64,000 bases of DNA from Marsupella aquatica (lineage: Eukaryota; Plantae; Marchantiophyta), in assembly GCA_973895155.1 (NCBI GenBank), contig OZ316894.1:23682709-23746708 (forward strand). Reading direction: 5' to 3'. Each line of letters begins with the position of its first letter. Positions within the stretch are counted from its first letter, which is position 1. This document shows positions 11,260-46,540 of this stretch, one piece after another. The notes under the pieces were generated by a model. The model did not search any database. It saw only the letters and a program-made list of their open reading frames with translations, and had not been told where the DNA came from. The translations under genes were made by a program, and so were the position numbers.

Positions 11260-12783
11260 TGAAGTGGAGGCAAATTTGAAGATTGAGGAAAATGGCTGTA
11301 CATAGTTTTTTTCCCTCGAAAAAACTCGATGAAATCCATTCAAAAAGCCAGAATACAGGAAGGGGGGCCAAAAAAGGCAACCACCTGGAAGGACCAGAGG
11401 TCAAGGTGCCGGGGTCGGTGAAGCCGGAACCGAGTAAGAAGCCACGCCTCAAAAAGGCAGCCAAACTAGAAATTTGGAAACTACTACAGGAGCAGCACAC
11501 CCCCAAAGACCGGTCAGTGAACAGGGACCGGCGAGGTACTGAACAGTGGGTCCGTGAAAGAAAAACAATCAGTCTACCAGTAGTGCAGCTTCAAAACCCG
11601 AAGCATCCGTTGAATCATGGAGGACGCGGAGGAACAGGTTGAACCTGAAGTGTGTCTTCATGAATTTGCCATAAGCCATCCCACGCACCAAATTCCCGGG
11701 CCAGGTCCCGTCGTGCATCAGCGAAGGTGGTCTTCCCTGACCGAATCCTGGCCCTATGTCTGGCCCAGTCACGTTTGAGGTAAATGCCAAGGCGTTGCCA
11801 GGCCTTCCTGATGACTCCGTGAGGATTTGGTCGTGTATGCTCAATAAAGTGTGTGCATCGGTCCTTCCAGATATTCCAGCAAATAATAGCCCTGAGAAGA
11901 TGCCAGAGCTTTGCTGGAATGTCCCACGTTTCTGGAAGTTCAGCCCCGACGAAAATGTGGACTGGTAGGAGGAGGATCGGTCCTGCTCCGTGAGAGAACG
12001 CGCATTGTTGAAGAATGACTTGCACCCAGGTCCATATCCCCTGAGACACAGCACACTCCCAAATGCAATGAACGATGTCTTCGTGTTGGCTCAAACCGCA
12101 TCTAGTGCACCATGTACTAGGATCAGTGGGTGGGAGACGAGGGAACCTCCAGTGCTGTGTCGCCGGGATGCGGTAAAGCAGTTGCCACAGGTAACAGCTT
12201 TCCCGAGCAGCACGAAAGGTGCGTGTCCATAGTGTTCCAGGGTCAGGGGTCCAGTTCAGTCGAAGTGCCCATTTGTGCAAGGCCTTGTGGAGGATTCTGG
12301 GGGATCTCCCCTGGATTACCCGTAAATGAGCAGTGGACATATCCAGGAAAGGAAGGCCATCCTTCCACTCGTGCTGGAGCAAGGGTGCCAGAAGGCCGAT
12401 GGGCCTCCCGATGCGAAGCATGAGGGCTGAAGCAGCACTCGACTTCCTAACCAAAACCCTGTGCAGGAGTGCTTCCGGTGGTGGTGCAAAAGTGGCCATC
12501 TTGTGTAGACAGTTGTTGATGACTTGGAAGGTCCGTTTTGGTGCTGAGGTAGCCTGGGCGAATTGCCATTGGGTCGTAATGAGTTGCCTCATGGTAGAGA
12601 ACTCCCAGATGTACAGGTTGCCATTCAGAAGCCATGCTTCCATGAAAATTGGGAGTACTCCGCTAGGCTCATGGTGCAGTTAATGGCTGTACATAGTTGA
12701 GAACATGAAGATTAGTTGTACATAGTCGAAAGCCATGAAGATTCGGTACAGTGGCTCCTCTTCAATTAGTGAAGTGGAGGCAA
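11155..12783 (+). repeat. ~120-bp tandem duplication at the 3' end of the MOR1 copy; the second unit is split by a LINE
   Basis: Unit 1 spans 11155-11274. Unit 2 starts at 11275, breaks at 11305 and resumes at 12682-12783 (..GCCATGAAGATTCGGTACAGTGGCTCCTC..AATTAGTGAAGTGGAGGCAAA). Confidence 0.9.
11306..12681 (-). mobile_element. 5'-truncated L1-type LINE (C-terminal zf-RVT region, 3' UTR, short poly-A) with 15-bp TSD
   Basis: ORF 11615..12643 has YLWQLLYRIPAT..WCTRCG..EDIVHCIWEC..W..IWKDR (zf-RVT). A T7 tail lies at 11306-11312. The TSD AATGGCTGTACATAG occurs at 11291-11305 and 12682-12696. Confidence 0.9.
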
Positions 12784-19086: not shown

Positions 19087-22000
19087 TCAACTTTGTCTCA
19101 CAGATATAGAATCTTTCCGTGGATCAGCACCAACCACCAGTACTAGTACTTCACTGCCTACCGCGGGCGTTGTAGGAAGAACAACACTGCAGCGAAAACC
19201 CACCTGTTCAAGTACGAAAAACGCATGACTAATTGCAGGCAATAATCGCACTCTTAGACTTCCAGCACTCTTCCACAAAATGACGACTGATATACTAAGT
19301 GCACCTGAAATTGTTGAGTTTGGTCAGACAGTTATAGCCTTGGTCTTACTATAGCCTTTGAATTACCCTCAGATTTAAGTATCTCTTCAAGTTAGAGAAT
19401 CGCTAAACAAGCATTTTTTATGTCTACATAGATCGGCTCAAGATCACGAGCTCATTCAATGACCCGGGAAGAGAACCAACCTCAAGAAGCAGAACAGACA
19501 CTTCTCCACCTTTTTTGCATTGTAGAACAACCGCTGGGTATTCCCTATCCCTTGGCTGCCTTCGTAAATACTCAATTGTCCAGTATCGTACAGATGACGT
19601 TTGCAATTTTCGAGCATCTTTCGATCGGATGTTTGCCATTGCCATTTTGGCCTCCACATTGCCAGCAGAGAAGGGAGGCACATCTCGTCGCATAAGAGCT
19701 TTGACCTGGGTAAGATTGTAAGAAGACACCTGGATCAGACGCGTATATTCCCTCGATAGAATTACCAAGAAAGATTGTCTTTGCCTTCCGTCAGAAAGAT
19801 ACATCGAGATTAATACAGCTGCAAAGAAATCTACCCCAATTACCTGCAATGTGTATTTCTAAACATTGATAAGATACATGGTCATACAAATGTCGATGCG
19901 AGCAGTTATCTCTAAGTAGACAGATACAATCTTGACCAGGGAAGTTTAAACCAAATCCTGTGACATCCAGAGGTTGTATGTAAATTCAGCTACCTGTGCG
20001 TAAATCATCCTACACTAGAATTACAGGTAAGGAAAAACTGTGGTCAATGACAAGACCTGATAGTGACTTATAAGGTCAGAAAACCGTCGAATAGGAGACG
20101 TGAATTGGACATAGCCAAGAAGTCCCAAGGACGCATGAGGTATTGGCTTGGTGAAGCTCATATCTGCACTTCCCAATAGGCGGCGCATTGCAAATGCTCG
20201 GCATAGGCCGTCTGGGATATTTTCTATAAGACGTTTTGGAAAGTCTGTTTGAGCTTGACCTCGGTAGGGTAAACATAGATTATTCTCTTCACCAACTATA
20301 GATATAGCCTCCCCGCAGAGGATCATCATTTCTGCAACGAGCTGCATTGCTGGGATTGATTGATCCCTGACATCCAAAGTTATGGACGGCTCTATTGAAT
20401 CAGGATCTTTAACCTTAATTTCTGGCTCAGGGATGTTAGTCAGAACAGCACCCTGCAAGAGAACAGACTAATTTAGAATGCTAACAAAAGCAAACTACAT
20501 GTAAAACCAGAGATATAGAAAACAACGACGGACAGACAAGAGCTAAATGCAGTACAAAAGTAAAACAGGAAATCAGACGAAGAGGCAAAGCTAGTGCAAC
20601 ACCATTTGTCGTATACCAACGTGCAAATTCGTCACAAAACCTGGACTCGGAGCAGAGAAAAACCTGACTGGCACGCCACTTGGCACGGCAATTTGCTGCT
20701 TCAGCAAGTAAGTAAAGCTCCGGCTCCTCTTCGATATGCATCAGAAGTAACTCAGTAACGTTGTCGTACGACAGTTTGTATGTTGGAAATATTGTGGAGT
20801 TCATCACAGAGTATTCTGCAATGCTTTTTCATACCAATCAAAAAGCGTTAGATAAATTTTCACCAATGAGGCAATTCAATTCGCCAACTTTCAGCTCAAG
20901 GGCAAATCTAATGAGGTCATGAAGAGGGACTTGAAGCTACCTGCCCTCGTCGTTGAGAACAATAGCTACGGTTACCGCACAGCAATTTTGCCCCCGCCGA
21001 AGGCTCATTTGGCCAGCAGCTAGCTCGATTGGAAACATTGGTATGGTTCCTGTTGGTAGATAGATGGACGTCCCTCTAGATTCCGCTTCCCTGAATATAT
21101 ACAACATTACTTCTTATTACAATGTGACTATTGCACCGTACTGCGAAGGAAGTGTCAAGAAATCTATCATGCAACATTGAACATAATAATTCGAGATTAC
21201 AGTCCGATATTTGATAGATTCTGCACAAACAGCATTTTGACATAGAATCTTCTTCGCAGACTAATTCACTTTTTTAGGTATAAGAAAGTTCCAGACATTC
21301 GCGCTGACGACCACTCACAACACTTGGGCTCAAAATCTGTAACTTTTCACGGCAGTTCAAATATTTGACAATAAGGCAAGTAGTACTAAGGTAGGGAAAG
21401 GGACCCACAGAGACCAGCAGCTAAATAGAGCCCTTGAAATGCTCAATGGTCCGTTTAGAGCCATCAAAATCAGCTTCATAATACTAGCCAAGGATAGAGT
21501 AGTACAATAGCCGCTAAACCACTCCAAACCAACACATACACTACTTTCGATGTAAATGAGTAACCCCTCAAACATCCCAGCTCCCCAGTCAAGATGCTGA
21601 TGCACACCTAGTGAGTAGATGATTTTGCTGTAGCCAGCGAGTAGGATCAGCAACATGAATCCAGACTTTTATTCGGCCATCGGGAAGCCTTTCTGCACTG
21701 AGACCGTCGTCGATCTGCAACCAACCAATGGCCACAATGCTGAAGAAGACGACATTTCAACCAGAAAAGACAAAATGTGACTCTTGTGACATTGCAGGTT
21801 TTGAACTTCAGTAAGGAAATGTAAAACAGCAGCCCTTTCTGTTCGGCAAAAACACTCTGACAGCCAGTCCAATTTCCAAGACTCTAGCGTTGTACAAAGT
21901 CCACACTGCATGCTCAGTTCTCTGCTAAGACCATGTGTCATTACCTCATCTGTATCGTCCGAGTCGATGGTGTAGACTTTCATTGCTGTTAAGTCCACAC

Positions 22001-25000
22001 GATTGTCCTGCCAGTACAAAAAGTCAGCTAAGAAGATTGGTCACCCAAATGTATAATTGTCCGAACCAGAAAAAAACGTAGGAATATAGTAAGAAGATAT
22101 CATATGCGCGAGAAGTTACTTACCACATCTGGGTCAATTGGAGGAGTTTCACACAATTGCTCTACAGCTGCAATGTGCTCCGTGGCAAACTCCACCAGGT
22201 TCGTCATCTTTAAAAGGTCAACATTGACGTGGAGAGGAAATACACCCATCCCGATCAAAAGATTGACAGCAACTGCAGGATGCTTCGGGAGGCCCATGAT
22301 GTCAATCACCTGTATTCCCCACATGAGTCAACCTTAGTATAGCTGACTGCCATAGACAAGAACAGTTGAAGCTATTGACAATACATCTGCCTTCCCAAAC
22401 TTTGCTGCTATCTTCTCGGCTGAAGGATTTCCACTGAGTTCTGATGGAACGTTCCTGTGCCGGAGAAGATTATCTTTCTAGCAATTTCGCAAACTGAAGA
22501 GGAATGAATACAAAGGATATGCATACCTCCTCTGCAGACTTCTTTTGAGCTGGACCTGGACGTGGACTCAACGCGTAGGCTTTTAGCGACTCAGTACGAT
22601 CGTGGAAACTGTCTTCATGCCATCTACTCTCAGCAGGTTTGTCGTGCTGAGGACACTTGAGCGACAATTTTATTGCCTTCACATATGAGACTAACTGTTC
22701 ATGGGCCTTCTCTTCTGCTAACCGCTTCTGCTCCAGCTCCCGCACCTTTTGAAAATTTGAAGAATAACAGACTTGAGTTGGAACGCCTTAGATGAATCAT
22801 CCAAGAAGCAAGAATATAGTCATCAGCTTAAAAACCTTATGAAAACTGTCATGAAGCATTTTGGAAATGTCTGCACTAGAAAAAAACCTTTCTACATCTG
22901 TGTTCTTTTTCCGTTTTCTTGTTTGCAGAGAAAGAACCTATAACGGAGAAGACTGGTTAGCTGTTCAACCTGAGGAGGAGTGCGAGGCTCATAAACTGGA
23001 GTAAGACCTTTCTGCTTGCATCGAAAAAATAGTTGATTGCCAGACAACATTCGGTGCACACTATAGCACTCTACTGGAAAGTCTTGCGAGTATAGGATCT
23101 GCAAAGCATTAATATCAGCAACGACGATAATTCCAAAATGCTCATCTCAAAGATTTGACAATAAAAAAAAGAATTTGATAGTTTGTGACAACACTTGCAT
23201 TCAGCATGCAATCAGACATGTAAACTTTGAACGGAAGCTATCGACGAAGTCAAAAGAGATCAAACAAAGCAATATAATTCTGACTGCGAACGCTAGTTAC
23301 ACTTTTTGGTCGAACAGAAAATACATGCTAATTAAACTTTTTGGTTGGAGAGAAAATACGGAGGGCATTCATAGATTCCAAAACACCGTAGCTACTGGGG
23401 AGGAAGCATCCTCTAATAATGTACCTTAGCGAGACTTTCAGCCTGGACCTGGGTCACCTGCTCTGACAAGACTTCCTCCCACGCAAATTCTAAAAGCCCA
23501 AGGTCCTGTGGACATATTCCACAACAATTCACATCAATGATAGACAAAAGTTTGGGTTGCATGCCATATGCTGGATATTATACCGCTCTGAAGCACTTCC
23601 GAGTCCCAATTCTGTAAAACCATCTTATCACATATAATTCCCATACGTATATACGACCAGATGTTTAAATATCCTTTGCACGTTAGAAATGATTGCAAAA
23701 AATCAACTCCTTACCCGCGTCTGGATATGACAAGGAAAACGACGAGAGGAATCTCTGAAGCAGAGATGTGGATTGTACCTGGAGATTCTCAACCTGGCCC
23801 AAGAACTTTGCAATGTTACATGGTTCAAAGTCGTCGGGGTTTGGTACGAGAAAAGTGATTTGAGCGGGTCTGATGATATGTGTGTTCCCACTCTGTAACG
23901 ATACAACGCCAAAGACTGATTCATTAGAGGAGAGCAACAGCTTCACCAACCAGACCGCACGTATTGCAGACATCATGCACAAAATTCTTCAGCTAAAATG
24001 TGATGGATTGTGAGAATAATTGACGGTCCTCGACACTCTTCTTTAGACACTTTACATGAAACTCCCTTTGCTTATTGCTTGCCCAATACATAGTCTCTCC
24101 TGTAATTTCGTGTGCAACATCTTGTTGAGATCCAGTCCACAGGCTCAATCACGTCATTCTGCTCTGTAAAGTCCCAAATTTATAAGGAGAGCCGAGCCCA
24201 ACGGTTTAACAGCTTGACCTGGGCAAAAAGTTTGCTATGGATAATTTGGACATACAAACTGACCCGACCTGATCAATGGCAGTCCAATTCTTCTTGCCCT
24301 CCTTACTCTGTGCTACTGCAAGGAGAATTTTCCCACCCTCCCTCTCGAACTCCACCAGGGCTCCTTTCCTGAGAACCGCTTCAGAAACTCTGTTTGCCAC
24401 AGCTGCATCCGTATGGCTAGTTGCGGAGTGGAACCTGAACATGCCCATACCATGACACAGAATACTCAATATCTGAGAGCAAAGCAGAAGGGCCACCGGC
24501 AGAGCTGATTACTCTGAAGTATCGTCTGACGCCAAAAGTCTCATCTATGCCCAGCATTCTTAAATAGATTTGTTCGAGCCAAGGCTTCCAGTCCTACTGT
24601 CCTTCGTGCTTCCAAATTCCAACTGGATGAGCGGCGCTTACAGCTACCTCAGAACACGACACGAAATTTGCATAGAAACAAATGTAAGAGGTGAGTTAAA
24701 CCTCCGTTTCTGGATATTCTTTTTTCTAACCAAGTGAAAAAAATAGAATTTCGCACCTCTTTGGACGTTGCGATCCATAGATGATGCTTCCTCCATTCCA
24801 GCCGCTTGAAAGCGATACATAATCGTCCTTTCTCTCTCGTCTTTTCCATCCAAAACTAACCTGGCCATTGGCACCTGAAGATTGAATTTTAAAAGAGCTA
24901 AATCTCCCCCTGACTCTAGTACATCCATGGCATTCCCCTACAGTATTCAAGCTGCAGACAATTGGAGAGCCTGCTACTGCCCCACCATCAAACCCCGACG

Positions 25001-25451
25001 CCAACGATCCTGCACACCTTGCGCTTAACCCTGCCGCATTGCCACCGCTGCTGCTAAAACTGCTAGAGCTATCGTCCAAATTCCTGACACGAGCTTTGAA
25101 TGACAAATGCTCATAATTTGCAACTCCTGATCTTTGCCGCTGCGCAGAACCTGCGGTCCTGCCAGATTCCTCAAAAGCTGCAGCGACAGTAGCTCTCCAG
25201 GCGGCACGTCCGCCACACCGCCTTAAATTCGATAACATCTTCGCATTATTGGCAAGCCCTCCCTTCTCCTGCTGGTGCTGTTGACGATGATGATGATGAC
25301 TCCTCTTCCTCTGGCGAAACCCGAATGCCTCCTCCTTTCTTACCCGAGATACAACACGGCTACCACCACCGCCATGACCGAGTGAAGCAGTACCAACAGA
25401 AGCAGAACGAGGAGCAGCAGGAAGGGAAGGTCGAAGTGCCACCAATGGCAT
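19087..25451 (-). CDS. Ribonuclease II (RNB-domain 3'-5' exoribonuclease), chloroplast/mitochondrial type, ~14 exons
   Basis: GT-AG-bounded exons at approx. 24757-25451, 24269-24433, 23779-23892, 23425-23505, 22969-23098, 22526-22746, 22126-22309, 21945-22007, 21608-21714, 20941-21090, 20665-20822, 20057-20452, 19480-19704 and 19087-19203. Motifs: TIDSDDTDE|IDDGLS (catalytic acidic cluster), WIHVADPT, RGTSIYLPTG, LVAEMMILCGEA and HASLGLLGYVQFTSPIRRFSDL. The long Ser/Arg/Ala-rich N-terminus resembles a transit peptide. Confidence 0.93.
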
Positions 25452-25880: not shown

Positions 25881-26222
25881 GGGGGAACGAAGATACCCAG
25901 ATGGACGGCGCTCGTGAACCCTACAACCTCCATGAACCGTGACACCCTTTTACACTCTGTTCAGTATGAGACTGAAGCTTCAATGGACCTCCACGGGGGA
26001 ACGAAGATACCCAGATGGATGGCGCTCGTGAACCCTACAACCTCCATGAACCGTGACACCCTTTTACACTCTGTTCAGTATGAGACTGAAGCTTCAATGG
26101 ACCTCCACGGGGGAACGAAGATACCCAGATGGATGGCGCTCGTGAACCCTACAACCTCCATGAACCGTGACACCCTTTTACACTCTGTTTAGTATGAGAC
26201 TGAAGCTTCAATGGACCTCCAC
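25881..26222. repeat. 114-bp tandem repeat, 3 near-perfect copies, with degenerate partial copies at ~26250-26320 and ~26630-26690
   Basis: GGGGGAACGAAGATACCCAGATGG... starts at 25881, 25995 and 26109. Confidence 0.95.
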
Positions 26223-27752
26223 GTTAAATGCTTGGATTAAACTTTTGCACAACCCCCATGAATTGTGACACCCTTTTACACTCTGTTTGGTATGCGATTG
26301 GAGCTTTGATGGACCTTCACATTTGCCAGAATGCTTGTATAAACTTTTGCACCGGGATAGACTGCAGCGAAACTCTTGTTCTACTTATATGGTCCATATT
26401 ACAGCAAAGGCGAGGGTCAATGAATGGGATTCATGAAATGTACATTTTCACAAGAGGATAATGTCGTTTGGTAAAACAAAATAGTGTCTCAAAGTAGTCT
26501 GTGGGTTACAACTGTCCATATAAGCATCTTGTGAAACCTTGTGGTCTATGGGAAGTTTCTTTAGCTTGCATGGTATTAATGGAACATTCATCTTAACTAT
26601 CTATAAAAAAGGTAAAGATGCATGGATGCATAGATGGGCAGAGCTTGTGAACCCTGCAAACCCCATGGACTGTGACATCCCTTACACCCTCACTTGCTGA
26701 CACTCTTCCCGCATCCAAACCTTTTCAACCATTTCACTTTCTCCATTCACTTTCTCCCTTTGCTATGTAACAAATTGGCTATTGTTGGGTTACTTAGAAG
26801 CAGTTTGGAAAATGAGCCTATCTTTGCCAATTTTATTAAGACTTTAGGGAGCAACACATTTCCAAAGACTACACCCTCAGTATACACTTTTCCTGCTTCC
26901 ACAAGCATTGACCAGAAAAAGTTTCTTCTTCAATTTCTCCCTGAGTATTCAATCAAATCAGCTACTGTTGGGCTTGTCTGTTGGGCTTGTAAGGAGGCAG
27001 CTCGGAAGATTATTCCAACTAGCCTAATATCAACAACTTCCATTTATAAAAAAATTCCAAAGATGGATGTCTTGCCTTCTTGTCACATTTCCTGTAATTT
27101 GTATCATCTGTGCAAAAACGAGGGTTTCCCTAAGGTCTATGTGGTGGGTGAGTCTCTCCAGGCATTTGCACAAACCCAGAGGTCCATACAGGCTTCTTTA
27201 ATTCCCACAAATCCACGTGGCAAACATCTTCATGCAACTTAAAAAGTTTCAGCACAGAATTAATAGAGTTGCATCACCTTCATTCAGCTCAATTCTTCAA
27301 CACCTGATTGAACACATTGAGAGAATTGTGTGTTGTTGGGCTATTTTCACAGAGGTAGGACAACCTCTATTCTAAAGGTTACAATCTTTTGAGTTGATCC
27401 ACACTCTGGTTAAAAACTCATTGGATTATGTACAGTAGACTGAGGATAATGTACATACTGAGCTGGCTTTTGGGACTACCAGCCAACTAACTGATCTGAA
27501 TCGTAGTCTTTTAGTCTATTTAGACTATATTCGTGGTTTATTACAGTGTTGTTGCACATCTTTGCCCACGTTGCTTCCCAATCATGTAGAAGTTTCCATT
27601 TCTGTAATGATGTAAAGTACTCCTAGTACTTAAAACTTTGCACTGGCTGCAGCTTGCACGAGGATACATTGGGCATAGCTTGGATTCACATGACCACGCT
27701 GAGTAGGGTTGGATTCACTATGTACAGTTTTCAATCTAGTGAGAACATCTCT

Positions 27753-30608
27753 CTAGAGCTCGAGCTCTTTTGTTCTTTGCAGCACAAGTAGTAGATACTG
27801 CTCTGCCATCGTTGACTGAAGCACCACGTTCATGCCATAGGAGGAGGCTTGCATCTTTGCTTCCATCATCATCTCTTGATTGTCATCAATCAACACCAAT
27901 TTACCTTGTTGATGAAGTTTGGCTCTCACAGAACAGTAGAGTCGTCCAAAGTCTTGAATCACGTCAAGACCTAGGCATAAGATGGTCACATCCAAGCTAC
28001 CTGGCAGGGTATGCGGTAAGTGGTCAAAACTCTTATTCAGGACCGCTGTCAAATTGAGCACAGCCTCATGCTTGGCAAGGCGTCGAGTGTGTTCCACCCA
28101 GGTACGCTTCCGGGTGACAGCATAGCAATCGATTTCCTTAAAATGCTTGGCCACTTGAATGGACATCAGCCCTGCTCCAGCACAAAGGTCAGCAAATTTT
28201 GTGGACGGATGCACTAGTGTGGACAAGAAAGAACAGACTTCCTGGAAGTTTGTTCGGTTTTGAGAGAAGGACGTGTACCGCTCAGCTGCATCTTCATCTC
28301 TTGGGGAAGTCGGGCACGATATCTGCTTGTATGGTGCCATGATTTTCCCCTGAGATCCACTTATATGACTAGAAGGATTTCCATTTTCTAGAAGGCAAAC
28401 TATTGCTTGTTGCAACACGAAGGACTTGTCCAGGAGTATGAAAATGAGGTTTTCCACCTGCCAGCGCAAATGAGCTTCTGCTCTGTATTCACACCATAGT
28501 TGCAGCAGTCGAGTCCCAAGGGCGTAAGCTTTCATTTCTGCAAACTGGACACAGACGTCACAACTTGTTACTGCTATGGTCAGGCAAGTGCAAATACCCT
28601 TGAGAGTCATGGTAGAACTTTTCCCATTTTGTAAGAAATCCATAAGAACATTGAAAGATGTAGGCCTCCGCATGCTGGCCAAAAAACTCTTGTAGCCAGC
28701 TAATTCTGCAAGGATCAACATGGCTGTCTGGTAAGTATGGGGATCACCACTGTGATGGGCTGAGCGAGCAAGCTCTAAAACAATCAAGGAGGGATTCACC
28801 GGCCACAAATCGGCAACCTGCATGGCCACCTTTTTGCTCTTTTGACAAAATTTTGCCAGAGTCTTGGCTGACAATGCAGCCAGTCTATTGGGAAACGAGG
28901 AAAGCAAAGGGACAAACAATCCCCAGGCATGTGCCTGATCTAAAACCTCGACGGAGTTGCTGGCATTAGCCATGAGATCCATGGCTCGAAGAGCATTCAA
29001 CACCAAAATGTGACCGTATCCTGACAGCAAGTTGAAGTCCCTCAACGTGCACTCATGAACTTCGGAAAAATCACTGACATTGGTGGTGATTTCTTCGCAG
29101 ATAAGCTCTAAGTCTTCGTCCCAGATAGAAGATGATGTCGCAACTTTTTCTGGAGCTTGATCGCTCTCTCTAGCGAGAAGGAACGCAACTGCCTTAAGGA
29201 CGCTACCGTCAACAAAAAGAGAAAAGAGAGAGGGCTCAGTGGAGTTGCAAGGCTCTTCTATAGAAACGCCCAAAGGAACAATTGCCTTAGGAACCTCCCA
29301 ATCCTCGGTTTGCCTCATTTTCTCGAATTCTAACAACGCTGTGATTGCTTGGGCCCCCTGAACACGAGTGATCTGCTTGCCCGCTCCGCAAGCACGGGTC
29401 AAGCCCGCACACAAGTCTTGTAAGTATGAACAGCCTGAGAGGTATGATTCTAAGCGTGGGTCTAGAGCCAGTTTGAAAAACAGGCTAACAGAGCTAGCAT
29501 GTTCCGTAACTGAACCTAAGTGCATCGACTTCAGGAGCACTGGCATAAGATTTTCGTGCATTAGGAAAGTAAGAGTCTGCTGGGCCTTGAACGACGCGAT
29601 TATATCCAGAAGGCCTACTGCAGTGCTCCTCATAGCTAGACGAGAATCTTGGAAAGATTTAGCAAGAACAGGGAGGGGTTGGGCTTGCAGGAACGTCCTG
29701 ATGTTTATCTCATCTCCATCTTGCATTGCTTCGTGGAGGATCTCCAACACAAGGAGATCTTGGTGTTCATAGGCGGAAAGCAACGTAGAAAAGCCCGAGC
29801 CTTGCCCCAGCATTTGACGCATTTCCTGACCACCTTCTCGGACAAAGCACTGCAGCTCTTTCAACCGCTCTACAATGACAATAGTGTCAAAATCTTTCCT
29901 CTCTTCTTGTGTAGATTTCGCTGTGGTCCTATAACTTCTCGTTCGTATTCTCCTCCAATGGTCCAATTCATCTGCTTTCCAGATAGCTCCTGCTGAGCCT
30001 GGTTCGTCAAGTACTCTTGCGATTACTCGGAAGCATTCCCTAATTCTACCCAGAAGCTGTGCTGGAGTTACTCGTTTGTCACCCTTCACAAACGGACGAG
30101 GGGGTAGCCTGCTCCCCTTCTCTATCAGGACGTTGTGATGCTGGGCCCGTCTAATAATCTCAGCCTCTCGCCTGCATCTTGCTCGGAGCTTCTCAAGATG
30201 GGTTGTTCTCTTAGGACACAGCTTTTTGGCCTGTCTAAGGTCAGCCACGGCCTCGGCAAAGCAACCCCGCTCTCGACAGGCTGCTGCTCGGAGAGCATAA
30301 GCTCTCCACACCTTGGGTTGCAGCCTGATGATCTTGCTACAATCATGAATGACATCGTCGTACATTTCTAGCTTCATGTAAGCATTGGCTCTGTAGCACA
30401 AGAGAGGGACGGTGACCTCGTGCTGCAATGCTTGGGAGTAAAACTGCACTGCCAGCTGCACCTCCCCATGACGCATAGCCTCATTGCCCTTGTCACGCAG
30501 CACAATACCAAATCGAGCATCGTTGCCGTGATGATGATTCCTCGTTATCTCTGTGACATCATTGTGTATATGGCTGGGCTCTTCCACTCTCCTTCTGGTC
30601 AACGTCAT
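27753..30608 (-). CDS. Intronless ~950-aa protein: 3 TPR motifs + ARM/HEAT-like helical region (TTC12/UNC-45-like layout) + C-terminal class I SAM methyltransferase-like domain
   Basis: Uninterrupted ORF; first ATG at 30608 (the ORF track start at 30623 is TTG). TPRs: RDKGNEAMRHGEVQLAVQFYSQAL, YRANAYMKLEMYDDVIHDCSKII, RAYALRAAACRERGCFAEAVADLRQAKKLCP. The middle is Leu-rich and helical. MTase motifs: FADLCAGAG, LPGSLDVTI, LHQQGKLVLID. Confidence 0.85.
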   Translation of the reverse strand: MTLTRRRVEEPSHIHNDVTEITRNHHHGNDARFGIVLRDKGNEAMRHGEVQLAVQFYSQALQHEVTVPLLCYRANAYMKLEMYDDVIHDCSKIIRLQPKVWRAYALRAAACRERGCFAEAVADLRQAKKLCPKRTTHLEKLRARCRREAEIIRRAQHHNVLIEKGSRLPPRPFVKGDKRVTPAQLLGRIRECFRVIARVLDEPGSAGAIWKADELDHWRRIRTRSYRTTAKSTQEERKDFDTIVIVERLKELQCFVREGGQEMRQMLGQGSGFSTLLSAYEHQDLLVLEILHEAMQDGDEINIRTFLQAQPLPVLAKSFQDSRLAMRSTAVGLLDIIASFKAQQTLTFLMHENLMPVLLKSMHLGSVTEHASSVSLFFKLALDPRLESYLSGCSYLQDLCAGLTRACGAGKQITRVQGAQAITALLEFEKMRQTEDWEVPKAIVPLGVSIEEPCNSTEPSLFSLFVDGSVLKAVAFLLARESDQAPEKVATSSSIWDEDLELICEEITTNVSDFSEVHECTLRDFNLLSGYGHILVLNALRAMDLMANASNSVEVLDQAHAWGLFVPLLSSFPNRLAALSAKTLAKFCQKSKKVAMQVADLWPVNPSLIVLELARSAHHSGDPHTYQTAMLILAELAGYKSFLASMRRPTSFNVLMDFLQNGKSSTMTLKGICTCLTIAVTSCDVCVQFAEMKAYALGTRLLQLWCEYRAEAHLRWQVENLIFILLDKSFVLQQAIVCLLENGNPSSHISGSQGKIMAPYKQISCPTSPRDEDAAERYTSFSQNRTNFQEVCSFLSTLVHPSTKFADLCAGAGLMSIQVAKHFKEIDCYAVTRKRTWVEHTRRLAKHEAVLNLTAVLNKSFDHLPHTLPGSLDVTILCLGLDVIQDFGRLYCSVRAKLHQQGKLVLIDDNQEMMMEAKMQASSYGMNVVLQSTMAEQYLLLVLQRTKELEL

Positions 30609-33600
30609 CTTGCGCAGACTCAAACCACTCAGCAGGTGATACTCGACATAGATGTTTCATGCATCTATTCATTCATTGGTCCGGCCGGAATGTGAATAAC
30701 GGTTAATGTGCATACTCCTCTCCACTGTGCATTCTTCATTGGACTCTATCTATTCTTCAAGTAAGATGTTGCAAAAGAAGACTTGATCGGGCCTCTCTCT
30801 GCAAAACAATCCTCCAACGGGTAATGAACTATCTAATGTACTTGATCGCAATCCAATTTCGCAGCTCTGCAATTCAATTTCTTTTCTTCGCAATCCAACT
30901 GTTATGCAGGCCTAACGGTTCTAAAACTACTCAATTGAATCGTAAGCGAGGCGTTTCAGGGCAGAGCACCTTTGGCAAAGCAAGAACTACTGAGCTTCGC
31001 GATCATCTCGAGATTTCCCTGGGAGTCGCTCAAGCTGACCACTACGTGAATAGACTTGATTTTGAACCAGCTAAGGTCCCACCAGAACCCTTTCTCCGTC
31101 GGGAGGTCTACATACAATTCGTCTGCGCCATTCAGCAATATGTAGGACTTCGTCAGCAGCCCTTGCAAGATCCTCGGTTTGGTGACATGTTATCTGCGCA
31201 ATCGGGACGTCTATCGTCTTGGTACGATGAAGGATGCGGGAGAGAGTTCGAGGACGATAATGCTCGCAGCCCACAGTTCTTTGTGCATACCACAGTTGCG
31301 AATTTGGGATCGTAAACTACTGTAGGCTAGCCTGAAGACTGGGTGGATGTCATGAGCTATCTCATGAGGATCTTGATGAATCAAATCCCTGCTGGGGAAA
31401 GAGCGTCGAGATTCAATGACCAGCTACAGCTGTAGTCTCAACCGAAGGATAACGAAGTCGTTCTATCTAAGTTCATGCTCAGGGAACTTTTGTAAAAGCC
31501 AACCTAACATATACAACTTTGCGTCTAATTGCAGTCCTTCAGATGACGTTGAGTGCATGCTCGCTGACAACAGGATTGAGAACGAGGTTGAAAATAAGCA
31601 CAACCCAGGACAGAAAGATTACAAAGCTGAAGAAGGCTGAGAATTGAGGCAAAGATATCACTGAAAATGAACGAAATCTCAAGTGAGAAGAAATTGAATG
31701 AATGAAGACTTTGATTGAGAAATCGAATGCAAGGAAATTGAATGAGAAGTCTGGATGAAAAAAACAAATATGAATGACAAGAGACGCAGAGCAGAAATGA
31801 ACAACGAATTGTATGAGAAAAATGAACCATAGAAATGAGAATAAAGAAACAAGAAATGAATCAGAAGAATCAAGCGAGCAGAATGAAAAGACATCTAACG
31901 AAATCAAGTCGATAACCTTCAACCTGAAAGAAGAAATATACCAAAACCTTCAAAATGAAAGAATAAAGAGACGATAAGCCTCAATCTGAGAGAAGAAAGA
32001 GACGCGAACCTGCTAACTGAACGAAGAAACAGAGAGGTGAGTAACGATGAGCGACTCAGAGAGCAACGTTGGGAAGTTAGCTGCGTGTTTGTTCAGTGCG
32101 ATCTTAAAATCTATGGTGCGCGTTACACCTATCTACTGAGTTGTCTGATGCTCTAAATGAATCGACGAGATGGATTTGAAAGAACGAAGAAAATCACAAC
32201 CTCTAGTCATCACAGTTTCCTGGCGGAAGAAGTGATCGGCGAGAAAGTAATCCAAAGAAACCAAATCGAATATTGTGCATGTGAAATCGAACAAAACAAC
32301 GAAGAGGAGTCAGAAAGAAGCTCGGAAATGAGAATAAGCCCCACTGGTTCATGGTGAAGTATTCAAGAATTGCTACAAGAAGCGGGGAAGAGGAGGTGCG
32401 CCCTGGAGGTAACAGAGTCGAAGGAGAACGAGGATAAGGTAGTAGGTGAGGTGATAATTATGTATGCAGGATGTAAGACCTAGCGTCGAATCGAAGAGAA
32501 GGTGGAGGGGTTTTTCTCTCTTGGCTTTGTTTATTAACCGCTTTCGGGAGGAGAGGGGATTACGGTTGGAGGATCTTGGCGAGGGGGAATGATGCTCGGC
32601 CCGGCAGGTAAGTGGAGAGGCTAGGCGGATCGACAGGCAAGCGGGCTGGGTCATGATGTCATCGTCCCTGCAGGAAAGATCGAGAAGTGAAGAGCATGAT
32701 GAGAAAGTCGAGGGGAGAATGGACTCCTTCGAAATCTTCGAGGCAAAAAGAAAGTCGAGAGGAGACGTAGCCCAACCTTCACCGAGACTGTAATCAATTG
32801 GAGGCTTCTGCTTCTGATGCAGTAATTTGGGAGAGCAATGTCGATGATCAAAGAATTATCGTCTTATTATTATAACCTTATCATCATATCAAAGAACGGC
32901 CCAAAATTCCAAAAATCTTATGTGTGGGGAGGAGGGTAGAACGATGTTTCCCTTACTAGATGAGATCTCCGCCCTGAAAACTCGAAAGCCAACGACGCCA
33001 TTCGTTGCATGACCTTTGCTGACTTATTAGACGGATGTTTGCTGTAGTTCCTCACCAAGTTCATTTTCCTCAGGTCGAGATGGCCTCTCTCTGCATGAGC
33101 TTTGCTGACTTAGTACCTCACTTAAGTGGGATGTTTGCTCTGGTTCCTCACCAGGTTTCGCTTTCTTCTGGTCGAGATAACCTTCTCTGGTATTTAGTGT
33201 TCATACCTACAGTGCAGCTTCAGTCGGTACTCGATATATGTTTTAGTCTCGATGGTCTCTGAGACTCTCAATCGGGCCAAGCGTTTTTGTAGACAGGTAT
33301 TGTAATTGAAGTGTTAGAAGAATGATGCATCATCAGTGCTGTCTGCAGTGATCCAGTCCCAGGATTTTCGGGCGACAGGACACTGAGCTGTGAAGTATGC
33401 CACTGTCAAAGAACTCGTTGTGGGCCATATCCAACTGTCAAAGAATTCGTTGTGCATGGGATGTTGTCAAGAGAATGATGTCACTAATCTTGCGGGAAGA
33501 TGAGTGGCTTGTCCAGTTGAGTCTGCCTGTGTTCGTTACAGTGTAAACAAAACTGAGAAAAGGCATTTACATTGGATCCGCTACAAAACTCCTCAACCTC

Positions 33601-36569: not shown

Positions 36570-39439
36570 AAGTCCTTACCCGCACCAGCATTACTCCAGA
36601 GACTCGGTGACAACTTTTCATCGTCCTCAGTTTGCTTTGCGTTTACTCCACCCTCAGCTGAAAGAAGAGGATCGCTCTCGCTTTCGTTGAAGTCCTGCAA
36701 AACGACAATAAAATAGACTCGTCCTTGTCATGCACCCTTGCCAGTTGAATGAACTTAACACTAAAAGACAGTGTAAGCGATTTGAGCAGACAAGTTCTCT
36801 TTCTCCCTGTCTGTGGATCAAATCTACAAAGCACATAGTTTCTCACCTGTACAGCCTGCCCGGCTTCAACCGACTTTTGCTGGCTTTCAACTATACAGGC
36901 ATATGAATACAATGCCATCCCGACAACAGCGATTGCAATGCCGAAGATATTTCTCCAGCTGAAAGGATTCCTCAGTAAGATGTACCCGAAGGCCAAGACC
37001 AGGCAAGTCTTTAAATGGCCCAAAACTTGATAAGTCACTGGAGAAGTCTTTCCAATGACAAGAAAAGTGCTGAAGTTGACTGACACCGAAATGACACAGG
37101 ATAATGTGATGAAAAACTGCCAGAGCAACAAGGTCGGTTAGACATTCCGTCAATAAGCGGCAAAGGTGAACTCAGTAAAAACACTAAGAATTATCATATT
37201 TAAGAATGAGTTCTACTAAGATGGAGAACAAAATGACATTGCTTTCAAACCAGATTCTGACCGCTGGGACAGACTTACCAAGACCTTCATGGTGTATTCA
37301 AAGGCAAACACGTTTTGATTGGTGAGGGCAGCATCTAGGAATGGGCCGATTAGGAAAAGGGTTGTAGCCTGGTAAGGGCATGACTGGTACAGCAGCTGTG
37401 TGGATGATACTTTAAATCGTTTTTGAATAGTATTAGTCATCTGCGTGCCTTGGTTAAGGATACTTGGTTCAATGTGGCAACCTCTTGCACAGGCCATCTT
37501 TATCGCATGTAAATCTTGATTTCCAACGACTTCTCGGCCGACAGAGAAATCCACCTTTCCAACTGTAGGCACACCCTACTACATTACTACCCTCTCGGTC
37601 AAGAAAGAGAACGAACGGCATCTGACCTCTTCTACAACAGATAGAAAGATGTCACATGGACAAAAGGATACAATTTGTGCCACGCATGTTGTCACTATAG
37701 CCAACAGGGACAAGACAGAGCCGAGGGCATTCAGCTGCAGGTCTGTCACTGTTGCAATGCCGACCCCGACGAGCAGAAGGATCAGCGACATCTGGACACT
37801 CCGACTAATACAGCGAGATCCAGAATTCAGACCAACACGAATGCGAAAAGCTCATAAAATATGACAAACACATATAAAAAAGGAACCTTATGCAAAGAAA
37901 CTAATTACTCTCCTAGAACAAAATTCTCACACGGAAATAGCGCACATAAAAACTTAAAGGATCTACAAGAGCCTACGTAACCAATCGGAAGGTCATCTGA
38001 TTTAAGCATTCAAAAGTGAAACTAATTGCTCTCCACACATTTGAACCAGCAGTGCTCACTGCACAAACAAGTGTACGGCGAACGATCTTGGAAGGGTAGT
38101 CTCCTGCTTGAAAGAAAGGTCGCACATACCTGAATCGTTTCCTAAGAAACAGGGTCTCCAACAATACTGTACAGGGAATTATGGCCAGCTTCGTCATCTG
38201 GAGACAGAAACACAAATAGGTTAAAAAGAGAATCAAACATCAATAAAAAACCTTTACACCTTCAAAAAGAGGAGTTTGATGTACAACTTGATGCGAATCA
38301 AAGTCAGCCGTGACCATGCTATGATCACCAGTCCCAACTCACCTGATAAAACCCAACGGAGTTGAATCCCAAGCTCAGGTTCAGTAAACCAATGGAGATA
38401 CCGTTCAATATCCCAAAGCCCATGACTGTCCGCGAATCAAATGGCTTGTGCTCAAACAGGCTGAGCCATTGTGCAACATGTAGCGAGCAGAAAGTGACCA
38501 GCAAGTGCCAGCTTGTCAATGTCGTTGCTGGAAGTAAATGCGCAAGCAAGAAGCAAGTCAGTTAGTCGACAGAGCAATTTCATCTTAACAAAGACTGAAT
38601 CATCCACTCTTCGTACGACCAGATCTAAACAACAAGATCCCCTCGCATTTTAAATCTGTCTAGAGCACGTGGATAGATAATATGGCAGAGTCCGTGGGAC
38701 TGACGTTGCCTGCGGTGTTGAGTTTCGATTGCACATCAAACAAGGCCATCACAGCAGGTAGTATTCCACAGAGACTTTCACCGCCCACGCGACTATCACT
38801 TGGCTTTTACAAATGACAGTCTAATATCAGTCTGAATTATTGCAGACCGCGTTCTAATCATGAACATTGCCAAAATCTGGACATTCGGATGTAATCCTAA
38901 CAGCTGTCTCCAAACATCCGGAAATCTTGCACTCCAACTTACGTATGTCTCTCAGTTAGTTGGCTGTTCGGGATCTTGAGCATAACGCCTTCTGCTGCGA
39001 AGCTAAGATTTGTGTAGATAAGCGAAGAATGCAGACTTACCTACTGACCAAACTAGCGATCCCCGAGTGGTCTTGAATCAACGAACGAAATACGAGAAGA
39101 GACAGTACTGCAGCCTAGAGAGCCAAAACCCGACCGGGCCATTTGAATAGAGGCTATTAAGGGCAGGGTAAGACGGATGCTCATATGACACGCAAGCCAC
39201 GACGTTCAGACCCTGTGGAACAAATCTGCAATCCTTAACCTATTTATCTGAGTCATTTCCAAATACTTGACGCGACGACTTTCACCAGGGGTCCAGAAGG
39301 GAAGAGAGGCTGTACCAAAGCAGAATCCCAAAGTACTTATAAGAGCCTTGTTGCAGATGACAATTGAGACAGAGGAAATCACAGAGAGACTCAAGGCCCC
39401 GAAAGTTCCCAGCTGGATCCCAACCGTCTTCTCCGCCAT
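36570..39439 (-). CDS. Nucleotide-sugar transporter, UDP-xylose transporter (UXT)-like, TPT family; ~7 exons; exact 3' end uncertain
   Basis: Exons at approx. 39316-39439 (GALSLSVISSVSIVICNKAL), 38343-38528 (TTLTSWHLLVTFCSLH..LNLSLGFNSVGFYQ), 38129-38197 (MTKLAIIPCTVLLET), 37671-37802 (LLVGVGIATVTDLQLN), 37278-37440 (TNTIQKRFKVSSTQLLYQSCPYQ), 36847-37117 (SVNFSTFLVIGKTSPVTYQVLGHLKT) and ~36580-36694 (ESDPLL..LWS). Confidence 0.92.
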
Positions 39440-44548: not shown

Positions 44549-46540
44549 TTTTTTTGTTTCATTGGATAAGAAGAAATACAATTTTTTTTATAAAAAGGGT
44601 CCAAGAGAGTACAAAAGAACATACAAAAGACATCCAAAGAGAACAAAAACCAAACACAAAACAACCTAATATACACAAACTTTTTACATAAAAAGGCCAG
44701 ACAGAGTACAAAAGAATAACCAAAAGAGGTCCCAAGTGGGCAACACCAAATGGAAAAGAAGTGAGCGAAAGGAAACCTCTAAGAACCAAAAAAGGGGAAC
44801 TAAAACAACCGCAAATGGACCGAGGTCCTTATCATTCCTAGCTAGTGTGGCTAATAGCTAAAGGTCTACATCTAGTGTCGAAACTAAATTGGCAAGTGGG
44901 ACTGAAATGTCCTCTAGGGCGGCTAGCCGCTGCGGAGGCACACTAGCACCTACTGTCAGAGATCGACGATGGATGGCCCGAGCTTGAGCACGCTGTAAGG
45001 TGACTGAAATGCGTTGGCAAAAGTGCGTGGTCAAAATAGATAGCGGGGGTCCGGTGGGACCCATCCGACCATGAACATCCCGAGCAGCTTGTCGAAGAAG
45101 CCCGTCGAATTGATGGTGGAGATGCCCAAATATCTCAAGAGCAAGGGGTAGAAAGCTATCAAATGAAGCTCGGGCAGCATACTTGGCCTCCTTTGTTGTT
45201 GCCGCTCGTGATGCCGCTGCCCCTGCCGTTGTTGCCGTTGACCCAATGATGTCTTGGCGCAATGGGTTTGCCACTACTACATCTGCCAAAGTACGTTGAC
45301 CTTCACAGACCATGGTAAAATCCACCCGCAACCGCTGTGATGGAGGACCAGGTAACTCGAGCACCATCTCCCGCCGCACGTTGACCAAAGAGCCAGAGAG
45401 AACCTGTGTAGTCGCATCTCTCACAACATTGTGAACAAAAATGGTTTCGCTACCCAAACTGCACCGAAGAAAATGGACACTTGTGGCATCACAAGGCTTC
45501 CCACAAGTGCAAGAGGGAGGTAAACCAGCAAGAAGTGGGTAGGGCAGCCCCATACGAAGACGCATGGCTGTCGAGAACTCCGCTGAAGACATCCACAAAT
45601 GAGGAATGACTGGATTGGCCTGAAGCCAACCCCCTGCGCCCTTCCCTCTAGAAGAAAGAATCCGAGCTCAGTCCGTGTCAGGTGCCTCAATGAGGATGTT
45701 GGAGAGGCTGAAAGCGTGCATACGCCCAGCAAAGTCTGCTGAAGACGGACGGGGTCCAAGGATAAAAACTCCTGAAATGAAGGTAACGCAGCACAGACCG
45801 GATCTGGTAATGATGACCGCGCTGCGCACGAATGAACCTAAAATGGGAGGGAATCGTCCTCTACCTCCATGAGAGACAAAAGTAAAAAAGGTCGATCCTC
45901 AGTAAGGAAACGATCTGCCAACAATGAGAAGGTGGCCGCCCACACGCCCAAAAAAGCCAAAGGTGCAAGGCGCTCAATGGAAGTAAGCCCAAACCCGCCC
46001 TGAGAAATAGGAAGACTGAGCTGTCGATGAAGCCACTGAGATGAGAGCAATGTACCTGGCCCTAAAAGAGAGGCCAAAGTTCACAAATGGAGACATCAAA
46101 CGCTCGAAGGTAGAGACAAAGATCCTCGGTAGGGGGATGCGTCCTAGCCAAATAAGACGCACGAGGGTGGATGCACCTCTGTCAACAACATCCCAAATGT
46201 TGCCTGAGAATCTGCTAACTTAGGGAGCAGAGGAGTAGGGGCTAAAGCAGCCTATAGAACGTTAGCGATGAAAGATGAGCAAAAGGAGACGGTACCAACT
46301 GGGGAGCCAAGGACTCGAAGACCATCGGCTGGACGTACGAACCCAGGGGGAAGCGCAAGATCAGAGGGTAACCCGGCTGGACTCCATGCACGACTCTTCA
46401 CAGGCTGAACCCGTAAACCGAGGCCCATCAAATGGGTGGAAAGAGCAAAGGGAAGCCCCTAACAACCCAATAGGAGTAAATGAAACTAACGCAAATGGAA
46501 TGCAAATGGACCCAGGTTCTCATCAAACCTAGCAGATAAG
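44549..46540 (-). mobile_element. 5'-truncated RLE-type non-LTR retrotransposon (CRE-like): late RT motifs, thumb, CCHC knuckle, restriction-like endonuclease; decayed
   Basis: Late RT: GLRVQPVKSRAWSP..GLRVLGSPVG. Thumb: RQLSLPISQGGFGL. Then FSTAMRLRMGLP, CTCGKPCDATSVHFLRC, HNVVRD, RVDF..ADV, KEAKY, FLPLALEIFG and RISVTLQRAQA. An A-rich tail lies near 44549-44561. The RT part has frameshifts and stops. Confidence 0.85.

What the first reader, a model, noticed from the sequence alone, without database searches (positions are those of the whole stretch)
27753..30608. TPR + ARM co-chaperone-like protein fused to a SAM-dependent methyltransferase-like domain
Seen: one intact intronless ORF with three N-terminal TPRs (~30200-30510), ~600 aa of ARM-like helices, a P/S-rich linker and a class I MTase fold (~27800-28240). 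The MTase has motif I FADLCAGAG, LP..SLDV and LHQQGKLVLID, as in UbiE/Methyltransf_31-type enzymes. Known: TPR+ARM is the layout of TTC12 (axonemal dynein assembly factor) and UNC-45 (myosin chaperone), and I know of neither carrying an MTase. Two oddities: the TPR clamp Asn of 'NRA' is Tyr, and the SAM-binding acidic residue after strand 2 is Thr (CYAVT). Inference: this may be an undescribed chaperone-coupled methyltransferase or pseudo-enzyme, plausibly in flagellated sperm. The lack of introns suggests retroposition or domain capture.
Basis: partly seen in the sequence, partly recalled or inferred. Interest (0 to 1): 0.78.

Follow-up and report, generated by a model that had tools for sequence, protein, structure and literature searches.

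The report
Liverwort TPR–armadillo–methyltransferase fusion protein
A single-exon gene, likely from a leafy liverwort, joins a TPR domain, a long armadillo-repeat arm and a methyltransferase-fold domain in one protein that is also found in other liverworts; it likely acts as a scaffold that helps assemble a client protein, and its methyltransferase part lacks the usual cofactor-binding acid, so it may not methylate anything.

Summary
27753-30608 (-) is an intact 951-codon ORF. It has three TPRs (Pfam E 7e-14), an armadillo solenoid (about residues 170-750) and a class I methyltransferase fold (Methyltransf_25 E 7e-6; all 50 listed structural matches are of that fold). The full fusion recurs in Calypogeia fissa (77%), Riccia fluitans (43%) and an unnamed record (75%). 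The ARM-MTase junction also recurs in a more distant unnamed lineage (39%). The MTase part is the best-conserved domain. Both oddities are real and shared by relatives. The ribose-binding acid after strand 2 is Thr/Ser in 7 of 7 sequences, followed by invariant Lys-Arg-x-Trp. The TPR carboxylate clamp has lost 2 of 5 residues (3 of 5 in Riccia). UniRef's automatic name 'unc-45 homolog B' has no sequence support beyond the TPR region. TTC12 orthology could not be tested, and no expression data were obtained, so the sperm link stays a hypothesis. Best reading: a diverged TPR-ARM assembly scaffold with a conserved, likely non-catalytic MTase-fold module. I found no description of this architecture: a new variant of a known kind.

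The parts
27753..30608 (-). Single-exon ORF, 951 aa, TPR-ARM-MTase-fold protein
   Evidence: full-length homologues
30204..30509 (-). Three-motif TPR domain (aa 34-135) of the carboxylate-clamp type, with a degenerate clamp: R38, N42, Y72, R102, L106 against consensus K-N-N-K-R
   Evidence: Pfam TPR_1/TPR_2; PDB hits SPAG1, RPAP3, Hop, SGTA; residues across relatives; consensus from PMC2939883
30111..30203 (-). Long helix after the TPRs (about aa 132-166)
   Evidence: model helix H132-166
28359..30101 (-). Armadillo-repeat solenoid (about aa 170-750)
29004..29324 (-). Acidic, low-confidence insert within the ARM region (about aa 429-535); the distant lineage's gene calls break in this region
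   Evidence: pLDDT under 50 over most of it; P0124 and P0158 end and start here
28269..28373 (-). Poorly conserved Pro/Ser-rich linker (aa 746-780)
   Evidence: 14-18% identity to distant relatives; crossed without gaps by related-species contigs
27765..28268 (-). Class I SAM-methyltransferase-fold domain (about aa 781-948), the most conserved part of the protein
28170..28196 (-). Motif I (aa 805-813); Asp807, Gly811 and Gly813 are kept in all six relatives that cover it
28098..28115 (-). Tip of strand 2: Thr832 in place of the ribose-binding Asp/Glu, followed by invariant Lys834, Arg835, Trp837
   Evidence: strand E59-62 of the domain model = aa 829-832; 0 of 7 sequences acidic

Best explanation
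The gene encodes one conserved TPR-armadillo-methyltransferase-fold protein that likely works as a non-enzymatic assembly scaffold descended from a TTC12/UNC-45-type co-chaperone. Shown: the fused architecture, its conservation, the loss of the strand-2 acid and the partly lost clamp. Inferred: the ARM groove holds an unfolded or assembling client. The TPR docks Hsp70/Hsp90 weakly or has switched to another partner. The MTase fold is kept under strong constraint as a binding module with little or no methyl transfer, and its Thr/Ser-x-Lys-Arg pocket would suit a phosphate-bearing ligand or an acidic protein surface better than SAM. The client I would bet on is inner-arm axonemal dynein in sperm (about 0.3 taken alone). 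Odds for single steps: architecture real 0.97; MTase not a normal SAM enzyme 0.55-0.6; descent from TTC12 about 0.45.
For: The fusion is conserved in Calypogeia, Riccia and an unnamed record and, for ARM+MTase, in P0158. The MTase core is the best-conserved part: 88-89%, 59% and 52%, against 74-80%, 42-48% and 38-41% for the ARM segments, so it is kept for a function. The strand-2 acid is absent in 7 of 7 sequences. PMC4777477 (passages) reports this acid in nearly all Rossmann methyltransferases, an up to 450-fold fall in kcat/KM for Glu29Thr in M.HaeIII, and its loss as the route to binding phosphorylated NADP. The TPR's best natural PDB matches are co-chaperones, led by SPAG1 TPR1 (E 2e-11) and RPAP3. 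TPR+ARM is the TTC12 layout (PMC10267457 passages), and TTC12 is needed for dynein arms (PMC8836003). Land plants with swimming sperm keep inner-arm dyneins (PMC9237703). From recall only, not tested in any call, the second TPR and first ARM repeats look alignable with TTC12.
Against: No call links the protein to TTC12, dynein or sperm. The ARM region matches generic armadillo proteins; UNC-45 and ciliary ARM proteins appear only at TM 0.12-0.17. The clamp is degenerate, which argues against a true co-chaperone. Motif I and an acid after strand 3 (Asp/Glu862 in 7 of 7, aligned with a PRMT2 Glu) are kept, so SAM binding may survive; PMC4777477 notes five methyltransferase structures that bind the ribose by another loop. 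Both models are of low or middling confidence (mean pLDDT 55 and 63.5; motif I under 50), so pocket geometry was not assessed. SPAG1's lead over SGTA is small (45.9 against 41.2 bits).
Confidence: 0.4

Rival explanations
1. Active, non-canonical methyltransferase: the ARM arm presents a protein client and the C-terminal domain methylates it, binding SAM without the strand-2 acid. This would work like DNAAF3, but with the scaffold built in.
For: Motif I and Asp/Glu862 are conserved and the domain is the most constrained part. The weak best PDB sequence hit of the domain profile is PRMT2 (E 0.03). DNAAF3 is an MTase-fold dynein assembly factor, and the same paper infers another unidentified dynein methylase (PMC10835030 passages).
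Against: The strand-2 acid is missing in 7 of 7 sequences, whereas DNAAF3 keeps it. P0158 has Arg in motif I. There is no PRMT double-Glu loop or beta-barrel (features recalled), and the domain ends after the last strands with no obvious substrate cap.
Confidence: 0.27
2. A bryophyte-specific ARM scaffold unrelated to TTC12, UNC-45 or flagella, for example a signalling, trafficking or immunity adaptor, which acquired TPR and MTase-fold modules independently.
For: Structure and feature searches give only generic ARM proteins: importin-alpha, beta-catenin, ARMC8, HspBP1. The clamp is degenerate. No homologue outside the small family was found by the non-TPR profile.
Against: The TPR is of the three-motif co-chaperone class and lies N-terminal of the ARM region, as in TTC12 and UNC-45. 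The protein has no nucleotide-binding domain and no near-identical repeats. The homologue searches could not have reached 20%-identity relatives.
Confidence: 0.23
3. A plant UNC-45 (myosin chaperone), as UniRef's automatic name for the Riccia protein implies.
For: The name itself. Foldseek aligns the whole model to C. elegans UNC-45 at E 3e-5. One Atlas row at 0.90 is a fungal UNC45-central cluster (140 of 256 features shared, a lead only).
Against: No UNC45-central Pfam hit among the 15 families at E up to 1. The UNC-45 chains match the profile only at positions 39-186 and are absent from the 49 hits of the non-TPR profile. TM-score is 0.14. PMC8166112 (passage) places the origin of UNC45 in Fungi.
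Confidence: 0.07
4. Artefact: a mis-assembly, a chance read-through, or a transcript that ends or splices before the MTase part.
For: No RNA evidence was obtained. The linker is poorly conserved.
Against: The frame is continuous with no stop in three other full-length proteins and in P0158. Contigs cross the junction without gaps. The MTase part is the most conserved region. A simple scan found only one donor-like and one acceptor-like site in the ORF, neither near the linker.
Confidence: 0.03

Closest known systems
TTC12 (dynein-arm assembly factor, 705 aa in human)
   Same: N-terminal TPRs followed by ARM domains (PMC10267457, passages); liverworts have flagellated sperm with inner-arm dyneins (PMC9237703, passages)
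   Different: This protein has an added MTase-fold domain, an acidic insert and a degenerate clamp. Orthology was not testable here, and 0 papers hold both TTC12 and Marchantia.
UNC-45 (TPR-central-UCS myosin chaperone)
   Same: TPR plus long ARM solenoid, similar length; UniRef's automatic label for the Riccia homologue
   Different: No sequence match to the central or UCS domains; it carries an MTase-fold domain; the clamp is degenerate.
DNAAF3/PF22
   Same: A class I MTase fold inside a putative assembly factor (PMC10835030, passages)
   Different: DNAAF3 keeps the strand-2 acid and has no TPR-ARM part; no similarity to it showed in any call.
Small class I methyltransferases (Methyltransf_11/25/31, UbiE, CbiT-like)
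   Same: Fold, motif I and motif III region
   Different: Identity only 8-16%; strand-2 acid replaced by Thr/Ser plus Lys-Arg; fused to a 770-residue helical scaffold.
Carboxylate-clamp TPR co-chaperones (SPAG1, RPAP3, Hop, SGTA, PP5)
   Same: Three-motif TPR with the same register
   Different: 2 of 5 clamp residues are radically replaced here, 3 of 5 in Riccia.

Membership tests
Class I SAM-dependent methyltransferases | Rossmann-like seven-strand fold | tested here: met
   Pfam Methyltransf_25 at its cut-off; Atlas 0.95; all 50 listed VIA rows are of this fold, best Z 7.5, rmsd 5.2, 150 aligned; Foldseek best E 1.3e-3. The model is only partly confident and strand 1 is not modelled as a strand.
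Class I SAM-dependent methyltransferases | Motif I: acid at the end of strand 1 and a Gly-rich loop | tested here: met
   Asp807, Gly811 and Gly813 are kept in 6 of 6 sequences covering it; the first Gly position is Cys (Arg in P0158).
Class I SAM-dependent methyltransferases | Asp/Glu at the tip of strand 2 binding the SAM ribose (PMC4777477) | tested here: not met
   Thr in 4 and Ser in 3 of 7 sequences; position fixed by the model strand and the PRMT2 alignment.
Class I SAM-dependent methyltransferases | Acid after strand 3 binding the adenine (feature recalled) | tested here: inconclusive
   Ser/Gly860 in the small-molecule register, but Asp/Glu862 in 7 of 7 in the PRMT register.
Class I SAM-dependent methyltransferases | SAM binding and methyl transfer | not testable with these tools
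   needs biochemistry
Carboxylate-clamp TPR co-chaperones | Three-motif TPR domain | tested here: met
Carboxylate-clamp TPR co-chaperones | Clamp K5 N9 - N6 - K2 R6 (PMC2939883) | tested here: not met
   R, N, Y, R, L here; R, N, H, R, L in two relatives; K, H, H, K, V in Riccia. The paper notes that some real co-chaperones tolerate a change at R6, while N6 is highly conserved.
Carboxylate-clamp TPR co-chaperones | Binding to Hsp70/Hsp90 EEVD | not tested
UNC-45 | N-terminal TPR domain | tested here: met
   UNC-45 chains match profile positions 39-186 at E 1e-9, below many other TPR proteins
UNC-45 | Central and UCS domain sequence similarity | tested here: not met
   no UNC45-central hit at E up to 1; no UNC-45 chain among the 49 hits of the non-TPR profile or the 2 hits of the ARM-only query
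UNC-45 | Structural match of the ARM regions | tested here: inconclusive
   Foldseek E 3e-5 but TM 0.14, rmsd 27; low-confidence model
TTC12 | TPR followed by ARM domains | tested here: met
   layout from PMC10267457
TTC12 | Sequence orthology to TTC12 | not testable with these tools
   no call returned a TTC12 sequence; word-based searches cannot reach such distances, and the HMMER list was filled by multi-TPR proteins (143 of 150 rows)
TTC12 | Confined to ciliated lineages and expressed in ciliated cells | tested here: inconclusive
   named homologues are two liverworts; no seed-plant homologue appeared, but neither did Marchantia or mosses, so absence means little
Protein arginine methyltransferases (PRMT) | Double-Glu loop after strand 4 and a C-terminal beta-barrel (features recalled) | tested here: not met
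   no Glu in aa 876-886; the domain ends about 70 residues later as helix plus two strands; the PRMT2 hit is only E 0.03

The most novel reading that the evidence does not exclude
Early land plants carry a TTC12-derived dynein assembly factor that has captured its own methyltransferase domain. One polypeptide would hold inner-arm dynein on its ARM arm and methylate it, or sense a phosphorylated adenosine ligand, through a SAM pocket rebuilt without the near-universal strand-2 acid. Chaperoning and modification of sperm motors would be joined in a single chain.
Probability: 0.12. Interest if true: 0.8.

Novelty: new variant of a known kind. Interest (0 to 1): 0.5.

Why it matters
I found no description of this three-domain architecture, and public annotation labels the Riccia member UNC-45 without support beyond the TPR region. 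If it is a TTC12 descendant, it gives a testable handle on how plant sperm, which lack outer dynein arms, assemble their motors. It would also bear on the unidentified dynein methylase inferred in the DNAAF3 work. Whatever the client, a methyltransferase fold that is the protein's best-conserved part yet lacks a near-universal cofactor contact is a clean case for studying pseudo-enzymes or cofactor switching, and knockouts are feasible in liverworts.

Tried and rejected
No whole genome is held, so copy number in this genome was not checked; the window holds one copy. No RNA holder was listed. The eight runs laid behave as DNA contigs, so nothing is said on expression. Homologue searches: 3 full-length relatives among 6 hits of 7,994 candidates; 4 hits of 7,997 with the non-TPR profile; only the query itself of 7,995 with the Riccia protein. 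The last missed even the 43%-identical relatives, so not finding Marchantia, moss or fern members is uninformative. Metagenome scans: 0 of 149 pattern matches and 1 of 277. That one, L001, is rejected as chance: 37% over about 50 residues in a short frame opposite a longer unrelated ORF. Prokaryote genomes: 0 of 72, so no bacterial donor was identified. UNC-45 is not among the 50 rows of either VIA run on the full model, which does not exclude it. The whole-protein Atlas search gave only bacterial TPR+MTase clusters at 0.78, a lead below chance level. Marchantia Mapoly0203s0010 (TPR + ARM, antheridiophore-enriched, 6.8-kb transcript; PMC7363739 supplement 6) could not be tied to this protein by sequence and has no MTase annotation, so it is not used as evidence. 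Literature searches: TTC12+Marchantia 0; TTC12+dynein arm+armadillo+TPR 0; UNC-45+land plants+UCS 0; the accessions and gene ids 0; none of 30 listed rows held TTC12. Supplements of PMC6290024 (0 hits) and PMC3268115 (no TTC12 or unc-45; one file cut when stored) gave nothing. The original TTC12 paper (Thomas 2020) is not held. No complex was predicted. Recent domain capture is rejected on composition and age.
Full report
Observation. The stretch 27753-30608 on the minus strand is one open frame of 951 codons; by chance this has odds near 3e-22. Pfam finds TPRs at aa 34-135 (TPR_1 E 7.3e-14) and a methyltransferase domain at aa 807-898 (Methyltransf_25, E 6.9e-6, 27.1 bits against a cut-off of 27), with weaker hits to five other MTase families. 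A contig of run X1 spans 26194-31967 with no difference (this run may be the window's source). Contigs of related species cross the ARM-linker-MTase junction with substitutions but no gaps, for example 27883-28671 with 57 differences and 0 gaps, whereas intron-containing stretches nearby carry many gaps. The fusion is not an assembly artefact.

Relatives. A search of 5.8 billion proteins gave 6 hits among 7,994 candidates: 3 full-length relatives and 3 TPR-only matches. The relatives are Calypogeia fissa (77%, with a second copy P0008), an unnamed Logan protein (75%) and Riccia fluitans (43%, automatically named 'unc-45 homolog B'). All have the same order of domains. The window is therefore likely from a leafy liverwort. 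The HMMER search listed 150 of 57,805 hits: 2 full-length relatives, 5 non-TPR fragments and 143 TPR-only proteins. The fragments lead to a more distant unnamed lineage. P0158 joins ARM, linker and MTase in one frame, 39% identical to this protein and 32% to Riccia. In that lineage the gene calls break between about aa 440 and 467, which fits an intron or a frameshift; its DNA was not seen. No member outside these was retrieved, but the searches were too insensitive for that to mean absence.

Domains. The middle region is an armadillo solenoid. The non-TPR profile hits designed ARM proteins and importin-alpha. The model (mean pLDDT 55, 4 sequences) matches importin-alpha3 at Z 14.4, rmsd 3.8 over 244 residues, and beta-catenin and others over aa 170-750. 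These are generic ARM matches. UNC-45 appears in Foldseek at E 3e-5 but TM 0.14, and by sequence only over the TPR and the following helix. The C-terminal domain folded alone (pLDDT 63.5, pTM 0.65) matches class I methyltransferase folds in all 50 listed VIA rows (best Z 7.5, a middling value) and throughout the Foldseek list (best E 1.3e-3). The Atlas gives 0.95 to small bacterial and archaeal methyltransferases. Identities are 8-16%, so no donor or substrate class can be named.

The two oddities. The MTase core is the best-conserved part of the protein: 88-89% to the close relatives, 59% to Riccia and 52% to P0158, against 38-48% for ARM segments in the distant pairs. Yet the residue at the tip of strand 2 is Thr or Ser in 7 of 7 sequences, followed by invariant Lys, Arg and Trp. 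PMC4777477 (passages read) reports an Asp/Glu here in nearly all Rossmann methyltransferases, an up to 450-fold loss of kcat/KM for Glu-to-Thr in M.HaeIII, and replacement of this acid as the step that allows binding of phosphorylated NADP. Against a dead pocket, motif I is intact, an acid at 862 is kept in 7 of 7, and the same paper notes five structures that bind the ribose another way. The TPR clamp consensus is K-N-N-K-R (PMC2939883, passages). This protein has R-N-Y-R-L and Riccia K-H-H-K-V, so normal Hsp70/Hsp90 docking is doubtful.

How it likely works. Shown: a conserved three-domain protein with an altered cofactor pocket and an altered clamp. Inferred: the ARM arm holds a client, the TPR binds chaperones weakly or another partner, and the MTase fold is a binding module and not a normal enzyme (0.4 for the whole). 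The layout is that of TTC12 (PMC10267457, passages), which is needed for dynein arms (PMC8836003, passages). Plants with swimming sperm keep inner-arm dyneins (PMC9237703, passages), and DNAAF3 shows that an MTase fold can serve in dynein assembly (PMC10835030 and PMC12633730, passages). From recall alone, parts of the TPR and first ARM repeats resemble TTC12; no call tested this. Rivals: an active non-canonical methyltransferase (0.27), a scaffold unrelated to TTC12 and flagella (0.23), a plant UNC-45 (0.07), an artefact (0.03).

Origin. The MTase part has the same GC (0.47) and GC3 (0.52) as the ARM part, and the fusion is shared by Riccia, Calypogeia and a more distant lineage, so it is old. 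No poly-A tract lies within 1.5 kb downstream; an AATAAA lies at 27542. The single-exon state may come from old intron loss, but this is not shown.

Comparison and novelty. It resembles TTC12 and UNC-45 in layout. It fails the UNC-45 sequence test, cannot be tested for TTC12, and fails the strand-2 test for a canonical methyltransferase and the clamp test for a canonical co-chaperone. Pfam and NCBIfam hold no family for the fusion. Targeted literature searches found no description; subscription papers and most supplements were not searchable, and Marchantia expression tables that I could not link by sequence may bear on the sperm question. PMC8166112 and PMC9587637 were seen as passages only. 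Earlier scan notes held no look-alike. Verdict: real, conserved, apparently undescribed architecture; a new variant of a known kind; interest 0.5.

Noticed in passing
window 9371-11259 (+): Intronless N-terminal part of a MOR1/XMAP215-like gene (TOG domains, Pfam E 1e-20 and 1e-38) split over two frames by a frameshift near 9640-9650 and truncated after about two TOG domains; likely a processed retrocopy.
   Followed up: partly
window about 19424-25451 (-): Multi-exon RNase II/RNB-family gene just downstream on the same strand (RNB E 7e-18 at 20024-20467); conserved in related species' contigs.
   Followed up: partly
window 36643-37137 (-): Exon of a nucleotide-sugar/triose-phosphate transporter family gene (TPT E 3e-8).
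   Followed up: partly
window 996-2003 (-): Copia-type gag with zinc knuckle, interrupted by a stop.
   Followed up: partly
window 11615-12679 (-) and 44858-45667 (-): ORFs of 342 and 244 aa that look by eye like tails of retroelement proteins; no Pfam hit at E 0.05.
   Followed up: no
P0021 (Riccia fluitans, contig of the same length as that of P0004): A short second copy joining an ARM piece (77% to P0004) directly to the last third of the MTase domain (64%); likely a decayed or mis-annotated duplicate.
   Followed up: partly
P0015 and P0087 (ENA contig of 25,328 bases): The distant-lineage gene is broken by an apparent frameshift at the start of the MTase domain, whereas its close relative P0158 reads through; sequencing error or pseudogene.
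   Followed up: no
window 27755, run X4: A 6-base in-frame length variant next to the stop codon in a related sample.
   Followed up: no
PMC7363739 supplement 6, Mapoly0203s0010: A Marchantia TPR + armadillo gene enriched in antheridiophores (5.69 against 0.16 in archegoniophores) with a male-upregulated Pellia match; its relation to this protein is unknown.
   Followed up: partly
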